From: Caldisphaera sp.
GTDB taxonomy: Archaea; Thermoproteota; Thermoprotei_A; Sulfolobales; Acidilobaceae
Direction: 5' to 3'
DNA length: 64,000 bases
NCBI GenBank assembly: GCA_049971805.1
Contig: JBMFKU010000001.1
Coordinates: forward strand, 32,001-96,000
The notes under the pieces are model-generated. The model searched no databases, was not told the origin of the DNA, and was given only the letters and a program-made list of their open reading frames with translations. Positions 6,883 through 39,767 of the stretch are shown here, piece by piece; the stretch's first letter is position 1, and each line of letters begins with the position of its first letter. A program made the translations under genes and the position numbers.

Positions 6883-7075
6883 GGGTATTCTTCACTATAT
6901 AAGGTAAGCCTCTACTCGTTACAAAATTAAAAAAGGAGGGCGAGATTTCTTCCTTAGGTCAAATAAAGATGAGAGAGTGAGAAACGAATTTACTCACATA
7001 GGAAGGAATCAGAGTAGCCTATAGAAACCCTCAAGACCTCAGGAACTAAAGCTCTTTAGGGCATGGAGAAGTCAG
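6883..7075 (+). mobile_element. orphan IS607-type right end (MITE-like), copy 1 of ~190-bp repeat
   Basis: Colinear with 20664-20856: shared blocks AGGTAAGCCTCTAC, AGGTCAA.TAAAGATGAG, CACATAGG.AGGAATCAGAGTAG and GGAACTAA. Confidence 0.75.
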
Positions 7076-20294: not shown

Positions 20295-20856
20295 GATTGT
20301 AACATTTTCTGTGTAACTTTTTAATATTTCTAATAACTTCTAGATACTATGAAGAGAACTCCATGGAGAGATACTTGATCTCCAGCGATGTTGCAGAGAT
20401 ATTTGGCATGAGCAGAATCGGGGTTATGAAATGGATTAGGCAAGGAAAAAATTAGAGCTGCAGAAATTAATGTAAGTAGAGAATTCCTTATAGTGAGGTT
20501 GAAAGACTGCTAAACAGATCTGGAAGAGTTAAACAAATAGCAATTTATGCTAGAGTTTCGTCAAGTTCCCAAAATGATGTTTGGAGAGGCAATTAAACTC
20601 TTTGAGGGAGTTGATTAGGAAAAATTTCGGTGAGGTTGCACTAATTGAAATTAAAGACATAGAGGGTATGCTTCATGATATGAGGTAAGCCTCTACGTAA
20701 CTAAATTAAAATAAGGAGTGTGAGGCTTCTCCTTCAGGTCAAGTAAAGATGAGGAGTAGGAGTAACTTTATTCCCACATAGGGAGGAATCAGAGTAGATC
20801 CTATAGGTAACCTCTAGATCTCGGGAACTAATGCCCTTCATGGCGGGGAAGGCTGA
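20295..20856 (+). mobile_element. internally deleted, decayed IS607-family element (tnpA 5' part joined to right end)
   Basis: tnpA remnant 20363-20662 abuts the ~190-bp repeat 20664-20856, which ends in GCCCTTCATGGCGGGGAAGG; left boundary approximate. Confidence 0.8.
20363..20662 (+). pseudogene. tnpA: IS607 TnpA serine recombinase remnant
   Basis: Across frameshifts reads MERYLISSDVAEIFGMSRIGVMKWIRQGK/IRA...IPYSEVERLL...IAIYARVSSSSQ../LERQLNSLRE...IKDI (MerR-like HTH plus YARVSS catalytic motif at 20546). Confidence 0.88.
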
Positions 20857-20874
20857 ATCCTTTTTCATTTTAGT

Positions 20875-20891
20875 AAAAATCTTTTTATATT
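20875..20891 (+). promoter_or_regulatory. BRE/TATA promoter candidate for the downstream structured RNA
   Basis: AAAAATCTTTTTATATT about 25 nt before the start of the GC-rich block at 20911. Confidence 0.55.
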
Positions 20892-20910
20892 CAAATATGC
20901 TTAGTTTTTA

Positions 20911-21158
20911 CTGGCAAAGGATGACCTCTCACACCGATGTTGGCTATGCCCAAAAGAGTGGGTGTGATTGCAGAGATGTGAGCCCCGCGCCGTTGAGCTC
21001 GAAGGAGTCTCATGACCCGCATGCAGTTAAGCTTGGCAGATGGTTGAGGGCTAAGTCCCTATGCTCGATCATGATTGAAGATAAGATGATTGAAATGAAA
21101 GTGTATGGACAAACGGTCGGACTTAGGTCTAACCAATATTTCTTATATGAGAGGCCGT
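20911..21158 (+). ncRNA. unclassified ~250-nt structured RNA candidate
   Basis: Hand count 120/250 GC (48%) in a ~30% GC genome; stems CCTCTCA/TGAGAGG (5'/3' ends), TGGTTGAGGGCTAAGTCC/GGACTTAGGTCTAACCA, CACACC/GGTGTG and GAGC/GCTC; upstream TATA. Confidence 0.6.
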
Positions 21159-21202
21159 AAAAACATTTAAACACATATTATTTTTGTATAAAAATAATAT
21201 AT

Positions 21203-22114
21203 TTGGAGATTAAAATGAAAGAAAGAGTTATTCTAAGGTTAACTAAAAAGAAGATATTTAATGAAACAACAGAGAAAATTAGCCCTCCAAAAGGTACTTT
21301 ATTTAATATAGGATCGTTTTTAATAAAAAGCTATGAATTAAGTTTAGATTATTTATTGATTCAAAAAATTAATTATTCTGATGTCTATGAATATAATGGT
21401 ATTGTTCAATTATCTCCTCAACCATGGAGTTCTTATTGTGAATGGCACAATGGATCCTTAGAAGAGGCTGATGATCCAACAAAAAGGATTTACTGCCCTT
21501 TAGAAGCTGAAGGCTTTTGTAGTAAACATAAAAGAACTGATAGAGCAATATATGATCTATGCCTTTCGTATAGAGGAGAAATTGCTCTACAAGCATGCAA
21601 GGAAATTGATAAAAAAATTAAGGGGGAATACGTGGTATACTTAATAGACTATGGGGGAGAAAAACCAAAAGTCGGAACTACTAGAAAGTTTAGAATTCTT
21701 GAAAGAATAGCGGAGCAACCTCATATAATAGCAACAGAATTGTTTATTACAGACAGCCTACATAAAGCAAGATTGATGGAAATGAACATATCTAAAGATG
21801 GTTTTGCAAACGAATTATGGAGACATAGATGGATATCTACGGAAAACATTTATAGCTCAATAATTAAATTAAATTCTATATTAAATAATATATCAAAAAA
21901 ATATTCTCTAAACACTGAATTCAGTTTCTTTAGGGTAAAACAGCCAATTAAAATAGCACCTAAATTGTTAGATTATAACTACTTTTATAATAAAGAATTT
22001 AAAATAGATAGCTATTGGGGCGGATATAATATAATTTATCTAAACAATCAACCATTTATTTTGCCAGAGAATCAAATGCTGCATAGAGATAGTCTAATTA
22101 TAGAAAAAATCTAG
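21203..22114 (+). CDS. DUF2797-like protein (Cys/His cluster plus GIY-YIG-like YxVYL...KVGT...R..EQ core)
   Basis: CEWH...CP...FCSKH...C...C and YVVYL...KVGTT....RIAEQ; likely start ATG 21215. Confidence 0.65.
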   Translation: MEIKMKERVILRLTKKKIFNETTEKISPPKGTLFNIGSFLIKSYELSLDYLLIQKINYSDVYEYNGIVQLSPQPWSSYCEWHNGSLEEADDPTKRIYCPLEAEGFCSKHKRTDRAIYDLCLSYRGEIALQACKEIDKKIKGEYVVYLIDYGGEKPKVGTTRKFRILERIAEQPHIIATELFITDSLHKARLMEMNISKDGFANELWRHRWISTENIYSSIIKLNSILNNISKKYSLNTEFSFFRVKQPIKIAPKLLDYNYFYNKEFKIDSYWGGYNIIYLNNQPFILPENQMLHRDSLIIEKI

Positions 22115-39681: not shown

Positions 39682-39767
39682 GCAGGGGTGCCCGAGCTTG
39701 GTCTAAAGGGGACGGGCTCAAGACCCGTTGGCGTAGGCCTGCGTGGGTTCAAATCCCACCCCCTGCA
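39682..39767 (+). tRNA. tRNA-Leu (CAA), no intron, CCA not encoded
   Basis: GCAGGGG/CCCCTGC acceptor stem, ACGGG-CTCAAGA-CCCGT anticodon arm, long variable arm, GTGGG-TTCAAAT-CCCAC T arm. Confidence 0.97.

What the first reader, a model, noticed from the sequence alone, without database searches (positions are those of the whole stretch)
20911..21158. ~250-nt GC-rich structured RNA candidate of no recognisable class
Seen: a 48% GC island in a ~30% GC thermophile, starting ~25 nt after a BRE/TATA and ending at the next gene's promoter. The ends can pair (CCTCTCA 20925 with TGAGAGG 21148). A 3' domain is closed by a ~16-bp imperfect stem (21041-21058 with 21119-21135) around a purine-rich interior carrying repeated ATGATTGAA. 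A 5' domain has nested stems (CACACC/GGTGTG, TTGG/CCAA, TGCA/TGCA, GAGA/TCTC, GAGC/GCTC). It lacks the RNase P GAGGAAAGUCC motif, the SRP helix-8 motif, a tRNA cloverleaf and regular C/D spacing. Known: GC islands in AT-rich thermophiles mark structured RNAs. Inference: a novel ncRNA, or an atypical multi-hairpin H/ACA or K-turn RNA (the 3' stem is followed by ATA).
Basis: partly seen in the sequence, partly recalled or inferred. Interest (0 to 1): 0.8.

Follow-up and report, generated by a model that had tools for sequence, protein, structure and literature searches.

The report
Guide-RNA-carrying miniature transposon (SMN2 type)
The GC-rich "mystery RNA" is one copy of a known 264-bp archaeal miniature transposon (SMN2 type) that has lost its IS607 transposase and TnpB nuclease genes but keeps a promoter and the folded guide-RNA scaffold that TnpB uses, so it is a structured RNA of a recognisable class.

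Summary
The GC island is real: 48.4% GC against 30.7% for the window. It is not a unique gene. Window 20853-21116 is one of 4 full copies, plus fragments at contig ends, of a 264-bp repeat in this genome. It matches 79.6% over its full length the feature annotated "MITE-SMN2" in Sulfolobus virus SMV1, and it matches plasmid pMGB1.

Its first 42 nt and last 144 nt are the left end and right end of a 1.9-kb IS607-family element encoding a serine transposase and the RNA-guided nuclease TnpB. The right part is where TnpB guide (omega) RNA scaffolds are encoded.

Across 26 copies from 20 genomes, six helices are 92.5% paired. Of 42 pairs, 16 show compensatory changes, against 7.4±1.9 in shuffles. 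No codon-position bias was seen. Flanks differ after the terminal GG, as expected for guides.

No Rfam hit was found. No cognate TnpB was found in this genome, and no RNA data exist.

Verdict: a new copy of a known element. The omega-RNA reading is well supported. Activity here is unproven.

The parts
20853..21116 (+). SMN2-type miniature non-inverted-repeat element, a non-autonomous IS607-family derivative. The boundaries are [R-GG]CTGAATCC...CAAAC-GG. Because the GG crossover is ambiguous, the coordinates could be shifted by 2.
   Evidence: There are 4 full copies in the own genome with unrelated flanks. 26 copies from 20 genomes were aligned. Of 23 recognisable left junctions, 21 are preceded by GG; 25 of 26 right ends finish in GG. 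Loose ends of other contigs fall at 20852-4 and 21116. Identity is 79.6% over 1-265 to 'transposon:MITE-SMN2' of SMV1.
20853..20894 (+). Left end shared with the full-length IS. It carries the subterminal TTTCATTT (20863-20870) and the promoter.
   Evidence: Element positions 1-42 match L054 1150-1191 at 88%. That lies 30 nt upstream of tnpA in relative G003. An inverted 8-mer pairs 20863-70 with 21093-21100.
20883..20891 (+). TATA-like box (TTTTTATAT). In the full IS it stands before tnpA; here it stands before the RNA scaffold. The inferred transcription start is about 20913-20916.
   Evidence: Read from the sequence. The motif or a close variant is present in 23 of 26 aligned copies. The start site is inferred from usual archaeal TATA-to-start spacing (my knowledge, not measured).
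20926..20964 (+). 5' domain of the scaffold: helix H1 (20926-32 with 20958-64) enclosing hairpin H2 (20940-44 with 20948-52).
   Evidence: H1 has 3 of 7 pairs with compensatory changes and H2 has 1 of 5. In full-length ISs the same two helices exist with different sequences, such as ATCAACC/GGTTGGT and GGCGGC/GCCGCC (read by eye).
20980..21000 (+). Hairpin H3 (20980-85 with 20995-21000).
   Evidence: 4 of 6 pairs are compensatory in 26 short copies, and 5 of 6 when full-length ISs are added.
21017..21043 (+). Hairpin H4 (21017-25 with 21035-43). It is weakened in this copy, with 6 of 9 pairs.
   Evidence: 5 of 9 pairs are compensatory, and 6 of 9 with ISs added.
21055..21110 (+). Terminal long hairpin H5/H6 (21055-65 with 21100-10; 21069-72 with 21095-98). 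Its loop holds the two ATGATTGAA direct repeats, which are candidate TnpA-binding motifs.
   Evidence: Pairing is 95-97% and 3 of 11 pairs are compensatory. Short direct motifs at IS607 ends bind TnpA (PMC6188088, passages read). Assigning that role here is inference.
21117..21136 (+). Candidate guide segment: copy-specific flank directly 3' of the scaffold end ...ACGG. A T-rich TATTTCTT at 21137-21144 is a possible terminator.
   Evidence: Flanks are unrelated among 26 copies. The stretch 21117-21202 is unique in the genome. The guide position follows IS607 TnpB systems, whose scaffold ends ...UCGG (10.1101/2023.11.20.567912, passages read). Guide length and terminator are inferred.

Best explanation
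Window 20853-21116 is a copy of the SMN2 family of miniature non-inverted-repeat elements. It is an internal-deletion derivative of an IS607-family insertion sequence (serine-recombinase tnpA plus RNA-guided nuclease tnpB).

What it keeps:
- the 42-nt left end with its TATA box;
- about 200 nt that in the parent IS overlap the 3' part of tnpB and encode the omega (right-end) RNA scaffold.

The protein-only stretch between the 5' domain (H1/H2) and the 3' domain (H3-H6), which includes the RuvC-III region, has been removed in frame.

Proposed mechanism, inferred by homology:
1. The left-end promoter transcribes a roughly 220-nt RNA from about 20914.
2. The scaffold ends at ...ACGG (21116) and the next ~20 nt of flank serve as guide.
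3. A TnpB supplied in trans would use this RNA to cut the empty site (GGG-type motif plus flank) left after excision, so the element is restored by recombination.
4. An IS607 TnpA supplied in trans would move the element between GG dinucleotides.

Shown here: repeat status, boundaries, homology to IS ends, conserved covarying structure, and variable flanks.

Not shown: transcription, TnpB binding, or activity in this genome. No close TnpB was found here, and this copy has 7 of 42 pairs broken. I put the identity at about 0.9. I put the chance that this particular copy is currently functional as a guide RNA at about 0.25.
For: Repeat status.
- There are 15 matches in the own genome, of which 4 are full length at 87-100%.
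- Boundaries are sharp and flanks unrelated.

Parent element.
- In relative G003 the element's positions 1-42 and 122-265 bracket tnpA and tnpB (L054 1150-3077).
- tnpA matches NF033518, IS607 family transposase, at 240.6 bits (cut-off 110).
- tnpB matches NF040570, RNA-guided endonuclease TnpB, at 103.8 bits (cut-off 100), and PF07282.

GG rule.
- 21 of 23 left junctions follow GG, and 18 of those 23 follow GGG.
- 25 of 26 right ends finish in GG.
- This matches IS607 (PMC6188088) and its G-rich TAM with scaffold end UCGG.

Structure.
- 92.5% of cells are paired and 16 of 42 pairs are compensatory, against 7.4±1.9 in shuffles (0 of 500 shuffles reach it). Slid controls give 3-9.
- With full-length ISs added, H3-H6 are 95.4% paired and 14 of 30 pairs are compensatory, against 5.4±1.6.

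Not a peptide.
- Variability by codon position is 0.115, 0.103 and 0.111 (p=0.45).
- 11 of 26 copies have a broken or start-less small ORF.

Known name.
- SMV1 HG322870.1 33927-34177 is annotated 'MITE-SMN2', at 79.6% over 1-265.
- SMN2 is described in PMC3839810 (passages read).
Against: - No RNA data: no listed sequencing run is RNA, so transcription is unproven.
- No cognate TnpB was found in the assembled own genome (96.6% complete, 66 contigs). The best hit is 32% identical and appears frameshifted (C27), there is a 144-residue fragment with stops (C49), and two TNB-domain hits are unrelated at BLAST level.
- Of 21 genomes with SMN2-like copies, only 7 showed an intact close TnpB (at most 5 candidates were scored per genome).
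- The window copy is among the less well paired, at 35 of 42 pairs against 38-42 for most copies, and H4 has only 6 of 9.
- The single-sequence fold is not better than shuffles.
- No Rfam omega-RNA-like family (for example RAGATH-18, named in PMC13565253) appeared among hits at E<=10.
- Shuffle controls ignore relatedness, so the covariation statistics are supportive, not proof.
- Erdmann et al. proposed mobilisation by an IS200 transposase rather than by an IS607 TnpA.
Confidence: 0.85

Rival explanations
1. The conservation acts only at the DNA level. The retained sequences would be binding and synapsis sites for the IS607 transposase, and the RNA has no role. The element would then be a plain MITE.
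For: IS607 ends carry short repeated motifs bound by TnpA up to about 60-85 bp from the end (PMC6188088). The element has ATGATTGAA twice and an inverted subterminal 8-mer. Many host genomes lack a close TnpB.
Against: Compensatory changes keep six helices spread over about 190 nt, well beyond the terminal motifs. IS607 moves as double-stranded DNA, so hairpins in DNA are not expected to be selected. The internal deletion retains the distant H1/H2 module, about 255 nt from the right end in the parent IS, while removing the spacer.
Confidence: 0.07
2. A host-exapted or independent small RNA gene family with a cellular role, for example regulating the downstream gene at 21203-22114, rather than a transposon guide RNA.
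For: It has its own promoter, the same orientation as the downstream gene, and it persists without a cognate TnpB.
Against: The other three full copies have unrelated neighbours. One copy sits inside a viral genome and one inside a plasmid gene. The boundaries behave like transposon ends.
Confidence: 0.04
3. The element encodes a roughly 60-residue peptide, a mini-TnpB C-terminal tail, and the sequence is conserved for that reason.
For: 15 of 26 copies keep an open frame from a conserved ATG to ...MIEMKV. Erdmann et al. noted 'small putative ORFs'.
Against: There is no third-position excess (0.115/0.103/0.111, p=0.45). 11 of 26 copies are broken or lack the ATG. The window peptide has no NCBIfam hit. 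The frame is simply inherited from tnpB.
Confidence: 0.03

Closest known systems
SMN2 (Sulfolobus miniature non-inverted repeat transposable element), annotated in virus SMV1 (HG322870.1 33927-34177) and present on plasmid pMGB1; Erdmann et al. 2013, PMC3839810
   Same: Identity is 79.6-79.7% over all 265 nt, the size is the same (251-253 nt matched), there is no long ORF, and the element is multi-copy.
   Different: The window copy sits in a small (1.5 Mb), 31% GC hot-spring genome that the genome handles place in a different family from most other carriers. The publication does not mention TnpB guide RNA and suggested an IS200 transposase as mobiliser. Here the ends are IS607-like.
SMN1, active non-autonomous element of S. 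islandicus (Berkner & Lipps 2007; cited in PMC3718332 and PMC3839810)
   Same: Erdmann et al. state it is related to SMN2. It is a non-inverted-repeat MITE said to depend on the ISC1733 transposase.
   Different: It is 320 bp. I could not compare sequences or read the paper, which is not held.
Full-length IS607-family elements with tnpA and tnpB (for example the 1.9-kb copy in relative G003, L054 1150-3077; ISC1926 of S. islandicus is the studied archaeal example, PMC6188088)
   Same: The left end (42 nt at 88%), the right end (144 nt at 84%), the GG termini and insertion next to GG are shared.
   Different: The window element lacks both genes and has an in-frame internal deletion that removes the RuvC-III coding stretch.
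TnpB omega RNA / reRNA (ISDra2; IS607 CboIStron omega RNA; SisTnpB1 of S. islandicus, PMC10640517)
   Same: It is encoded over the 3' end of tnpB up to the transposon right boundary. The scaffold is followed by a flank-derived guide. The target motif is G-rich, and the scaffold ends NCGG as in IS607 systems.
   Different: There is no Rfam match. Here the RNA stands alone behind the element's own left-end promoter. RNA-protein binding is untested.
PATE-like protein-less IS200/IS605 derivatives that carry omega RNAs (Meers et al., 10.1101/2023.03.14.532601)
   Same: The concept is the same: a non-autonomous element that keeps the ends and a guide RNA and depends on TnpA and TnpB in trans.
   Different: Those are IS605-type, with a Y1 transposase, single-stranded DNA hairpin ends and AT-rich TAMs. 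This one is IS607-type, with a serine recombinase and a GG crossover.

Membership tests
SMN2 MITE | Full-length sequence similarity to an annotated SMN2 copy | tested here: met
   79.6% over query 1-265 to SMV1 'transposon:MITE-SMN2'; 79.7% to pMGB1
SMN2 MITE | Short (about 250-265 bp), multi-copy, no terminal inverted repeats, no target-site duplication | tested here: met
   264 bp with 4 full copies plus fragments. The ends are not inverted repeats; there is only an 8-nt subterminal inverted match. Flanks show no duplication beyond the shared GG.
IS607-family (non-autonomous derivative) | Ends homologous to those of an element encoding a serine-recombinase TnpA (and TnpB) | tested here: met
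   Left-end positions 1-42 and right-end positions 122-265 bracket tnpA (NF033518, 240.6 bits) and tnpB (NF040570, 103.8 bits) in L054
IS607-family (non-autonomous derivative) | Termini and target share a GG crossover dinucleotide | tested here: met
   21 of 23 left junctions are preceded by GG; 25 of 26 right ends finish in GG. The rule is from PMC6188088.
IS607-family (non-autonomous derivative) | Mobilised by TnpA in trans | not testable with these tools
   One apparently intact IS607-type tnpA is present in the own genome (C44:41-622, 45% identity to the G003 TnpA). No empty-site joint was seen in DNA contigs.
TnpB omega RNA | Encoded over the 3' end of tnpB and ending at the transposon right boundary, followed by variable flank (guide) | tested here: met
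   Homology to tnpB 3' ends; flanks are unrelated directly after ...ACGG
TnpB omega RNA | Conserved secondary structure supported by covariation | tested here: met
   16 of 42 compensatory pairs against 7.4±1.9; 14 of 30 against 5.4±1.6 with full-length ISs. Caveat: the shuffles ignore phylogeny.
TnpB omega RNA | Transcribed, bound by TnpB, and guides TAM-dependent DNA cleavage | not testable with these tools
   No RNA run is listed and no biochemical data exist. A cognate TnpB was not found in the own genome.
Rfam families (RNase P, SRP, C/D and H/ACA sRNA, RAGATH-18 and others) | Score at or above the family's gathering threshold | tested here: not met
   Only a tRNA at 39682-39767 passes. 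Within the finding the best hit is sR32, at 10.5 bits against 40.

The most novel reading that the evidence does not exclude
SMN2 elements are self-promoted, protein-free 'guide-RNA transposons'. Selection has pared an IS607 element down to its left-end promoter plus a minimal two-domain omega RNA by excising the protein-only spacer in frame. These elements would spread between archaeal families on viruses and plasmids and hijack TnpB and TnpA made by other elements. They would persist, or be exapted, in genomes such as this one that lack a close TnpB.
Probability: 0.3. Interest if true: 0.55.

Novelty: new member of a known kind. Interest (0 to 1): 0.3.

Why it matters
It removes a false lead. 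This is not a new RNA class.

It also gives a mechanistic reading to an archaeal MITE family (SMN1/SMN2) that the one held description treats only as a mobile element with small ORFs. In this reading the family is essentially a mobile TnpB guide-RNA gene of IS607 type.

The 26-copy alignment gives a covariation-supported structure for an archaeal IS607 omega RNA that Rfam does not hold. It also shows which parts of the tnpB 3' region are kept for the RNA rather than for the protein. That could help design minimal thermostable TnpB guides.

The element is closer to copies in a different family of the order (up to 88%) than to copies in the same genus (79%). It also occurs on a virus and a plasmid. 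Both points suggest horizontal spread.

Tried and rejected
Rfam. At gathering thresholds only a tRNA elsewhere passed. At E<=10 on 20300-21400 only chance-level hits appeared.

tRNA and tmRNA scan. Nothing was found in the region.

Single-sequence folding. Neither strand folds better than shuffles, so fold energy was not used as evidence.

RNAalifold on the whole element plus flanks. It proposed a pairing between the left end and cols 183-189, and a long-range alternative to H3. I preferred the local hairpin H3 because two divergent copies change both sides of it. The long-range alternative also has one compensatory case and is not excluded.

Expression. No RNA holder is listed. The three runs are DNA contigs. 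Laying them showed multi-copy depth and loose ends at the element borders, but no joint skipping the element, so no empty site was seen.

Cognate TnpB in the own genome. None was found with the G003 protein or with PF07282. The hits are a 32%-identity, apparently frameshifted gene (C27), a fragment (C49), and two unrelated TNB-domain hits at contig ends. Contig ends inside repeats mean an unassembled full IS cannot be excluded.

Small-peptide reading. Rejected.

It is unusual only in this copy. I considered a relic of an inverted copy and a self-targeting guide. The register is 3 nt off from a GG-adjacent site, and I found no further homology, so I leave it as probable chance.

Papers not held. 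Berkner & Lipps 2007 and Filee et al. 2007. What I say about SMN1 therefore comes from citing papers only. Supplements were not consulted; the supplementary tables of PMC3718332 on MITEs may list SMN copies.

Search for prior linkage. A literature search for SMN2 with Sulfolobus gave 7 papers, of which only PMC3839810 concerns this element. A search for TnpB with MITE and non-autonomous terms gave no paper linking SMN elements to omega RNA in the held library.

Full report
1. The observation

The window is 30.7% GC. A TATA-like TTTTTATAT lies at 20883-20891, about 23 nt upstream of the span.

Rfam gives nothing. At gathering thresholds the only hit in the whole window is a tRNA at 39682-39767. 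At E<=10 the only hit inside the span is sR32, at 10.5 bits against a threshold of 40. ARAGORN finds no tRNA or tmRNA here. The minimum-free-energy fold of the single sequence is not better than shuffles: z -1.48 on the + strand and -2.11 on the - strand. The GC island and the promoter are therefore real, but a single-sequence fold proves nothing.

2. It is a repeat with sharp ends

A search of the window's own genome gave 15 matches to 20880-21180. Four are full length, in contigs C1 (this copy), C4, C5 and C6, at 87-100% identity. Several others are cut by contig ends, which is the usual sign of a dispersed repeat that breaks an assembly.

Aligning the four copies shows identity starting at ...GG|CTGAATCC (20853) and stopping at ...CAAACGG| (21116). 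The flanks and neighbouring genes are unrelated. DNA contigs of the one holder run show the same borders as loose ends at 20852-4 and 21116, and the summed depth inside the element is several-fold higher.

Both therefore pair the element with copy-specific flank. The complementarity between flank and scaffold is unusual in this copy (z -3.4; 1 of 200 shuffles as good). It is not unusual in the other 25 copies tested (z -1.8 to +1.2). I treat it as a peculiarity of this insertion, probably chance.

3. What it derives from

In relatives G003 and G027 the last ~144 nt match the 3' end of a 410-441-residue ORF that is preceded by a resolvase-type ORF.

- The two proteins are an IS607 family transposase (NF033518, 240.6 bits, cut-off 110) and an RNA-guided endonuclease TnpB family protein (NF040570, 103.8 bits, cut-off 100; PF07282).
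- In G003 the element's positions 1-42 match at 88% a site 30 nt upstream of tnpA. Positions 122-265 match at 84% the end of tnpB plus 10 nt. This delimits a 1,928-bp IS (L054 1150-3077).
- The window element is therefore left end plus right part of an IS607-family element, with both genes gone.
- G003 also has its own ~305-bp short forms: left end plus the last ~258 nt with a ~41-nt internal deletion.

4. It is a named family

BLAST against phage and plasmid records found the whole 265 nt at 79.6% in Sulfolobus monocaudavirus SMV1. There the feature is annotated 'transposon:MITE-SMN2, Sulfolobus miniature noninverted repeat transposable element'. It also matched at 79.7% in plasmid pMGB1 of Saccharolobus solfataricus P2.

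Erdmann et al. 2013 (PMC3839810; passages read) describe SMN2 as follows:
- it is related to SMN1;
- it carries small putative ORFs;
- one copy interrupts plrA;

I found no paper in the held library that links SMN elements to TnpB guide RNAs. The original SMN1 paper is not held.

5. Distribution

Across the order, 64 of 325 genomes match 20915-21116 at E<=1e-5. That is 28 of 47 genomes in family handle f13 and 10 of 66 in the window's own family f1. The best foreign matches (G295 88%, G284 86%) are closer than the same-genus ones (G002 79%).

Short copies covering all or nearly all of positions 1-265 occur in 18 genomes, and 5'-truncated ones in 3 more. Together with the virus and plasmid copies, this pattern suggests horizontal spread. 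That is an inference.

6. Ends and target

In the 26-copy alignment (20 genomes):
- 23 left junctions are recognisable;
- 21 of those 23 are preceded by GG, and 18 by GGG;
- 25 of 26 right ends finish in GG.

This matches what is reported for IS607. Elements end in GG, insert at GG and make no target duplication (PMC6188088). Their TnpBs read G-rich TAMs, TGGG for CboTnpB, and that omega-RNA scaffold ends ...UCGG (10.1101/2023.11.20.567912, passages read; review PMC13565253). The scaffold here ends ...ACGG.

Short repeated motifs at IS607 ends are TnpA binding sites. Assigning that role here is inference.

7. Is there a conserved RNA structure?

On 26 short copies (alignment A4) I tested six helices, in window coordinates:
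- H1: 20926-32 with 20958-64
- H2: 20940-44 with 20948-52
- H3: 20980-85 with 20995-21000
- H4: 21017-25 with 21035-43
- H5: 21055-65 with 21100-10
- H6: 21069-72 with 21095-98

Results:
- 92.5% of cells are paired.
- 16 of 42 pairs carry changes on both sides, against 7.4±1.9 in column shuffles (0 of 500 reach it).
- Controls with the partner slid by 1-3 columns give 3-9 such pairs.

Adding eight full-length IS right ends and one G003 short form, H3-H6 are 95.4% paired, with 14 of 30 compensatory pairs against 5.4±1.6 (0 of 500) and 1-6 in slid controls.

H1 and H2 exist in the full-length ISs about 65 nt further upstream. They keep their pairing with different sequences, such as ATCAACC/GGTTGGT, CCGACC/GGTCGG and GGCGGC/GCCGCC (read by eye). 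The short element has lost exactly the intervening stretch, which in TnpB codes for the region around ...WHRDVVALYNL....

The shuffles ignore relatedness and I chose the structure on these sequences, so the numbers are supportive rather than a formal test. RNAalifold also proposed a long-range alternative to H3 that I cannot exclude.

8. RNA or peptide?

15 of 26 copies keep an open frame of about 60-65 codons inherited from tnpB. The other 11 are broken or lack the ATG. Column variability is the same at the three codon positions (0.115, 0.103, 0.111; permutation p=0.45). The window peptide hits no NCBIfam model. I conclude that the constraint is not on a protein.

9. This copy and this genome

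The window copy keeps 35 of 42 pairs, with H4 at 6 of 9. Most copies keep 38-42. The stop codon of the relic frame is mutated, which also breaks one H5 pair.

In the own genome (96.6% complete, 66 contigs) I found:
- no TnpB close to the parent type. The best is 32% identical and looks frameshifted (C27). One 144-residue fragment with stops sits in a ~570-bp deletion derivative (C49). Two TNB-domain hits are unrelated by BLAST;
- one apparently intact IS607-type tnpA at C44:41-622, 45% identical to the G003 TnpA.

Among the 21 genomes with SMN2-like copies:
- 7 had an intact close TnpB (74-85% identity, no stops);
- 4 had only fragments or stop-containing copies;
- 10 had none at 65% identity or more.

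Limits of that call: at most 5 candidates were scored per genome, the cut-off was E<=1e-40, and some genomes are incomplete or have withheld bases. Many carriers therefore look like orphans. No RNA run is available.

10. Mechanism

Shown: identity as a transposon derivative, its borders, the conserved structure, and the variable 3' flank.

Inferred from characterised IS605 and IS607 systems:
- The left-end promoter, which drives tnpA in the parent IS, here transcribes the scaffold directly from about 20914.
- The transcript runs through ...ACGG into about 20 nt of flank (21117-~21136), possibly ending at the T-rich 21137-44.
- A TnpB made elsewhere loads this RNA and cuts the GGG-plus-flank empty site after excision. 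This triggers recombination that restores the element.
- An IS607 TnpA made elsewhere moves the element.

Meers et al. already note that protein-less PATE elements of IS605 type 'often encode omega RNAs' that need TnpB in trans. SMN2 would be the IS607-type, archaeal counterpart.

11. Verdict

The class is recognisable and the element is already named. I file it as a new member (a new copy in a new host lineage) of a known kind.

The modestly new points are:
- the omega-RNA reading of SMN2;
- its IS607 (GG) ends, as opposed to the published IS200 suggestion;
- the in-frame removal of the protein-only spacer.

All three await experimental test.

Noticed in passing
window 20664-20851 (another copy at window 6883-7062): A second dispersed repeat ('family B', about 190 nt) lies directly upstream. 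It has 20 matches in the own genome at 73-82% identity and none at E<=1e-8 in 40 relatives. RNAalifold on 10 copies gives several stems with 5 of 45 compensatory pairs. The SMN2 copy is inserted at a GG about 4 nt before family B's right end: the other copies continue ...GG-TCAG, and the window resumes with TCGG at 21117. It may be another right-end or guide-RNA module.
   Followed up: partly
window 20363-20578: A decayed IS607-type tnpA remnant. It matches TnpA residues 1-72 at 41% with 3 stops. It includes an HTH-like start (ORF 20363-20455) and a YARVSS-like serine-recombinase motif that I read by eye. The surrounding 20302-20613 is itself a repeat with copies in C36, C11, C31, C40 and C33.
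   Followed up: partly
G000 contig C49:5578-6150 (L057 282-851): A different deletion derivative of the same IS family, about 570 bp. It consists of the left end, the first ~144 codons of tnpB with two stops, and the last 62 nt of the right end, with no tnpA.
   Followed up: partly
G000 contig C27:5538-6900 (L056 192-2095): A similar left end (85% over 40 nt) lies upstream of a distant tnpB (32% identity). This tnpB is split into 361-aa and 95-aa ORFs in different frames, which suggests a frameshifted or degenerate solo-tnpB element. A tnpA C-terminal fragment lies at C27:5450-5626.
   Followed up: no
window 21175-21200: A 26-nt AT-rich near-palindrome lies just upstream of the next gene's start. 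It appears as a self-inverted match at 92%.
   Followed up: no
L012 1693-3010 (G000 C4): The C4 copy of the element abuts the 3' end of a chain of three consecutive ORFs (188, 65 and 167 aa). They read like one split FAD-dependent oxidoreductase-type gene, a guess from the GAGWAGL motif. The gene may therefore be disrupted, and the last ORF runs into the element.
   Followed up: no
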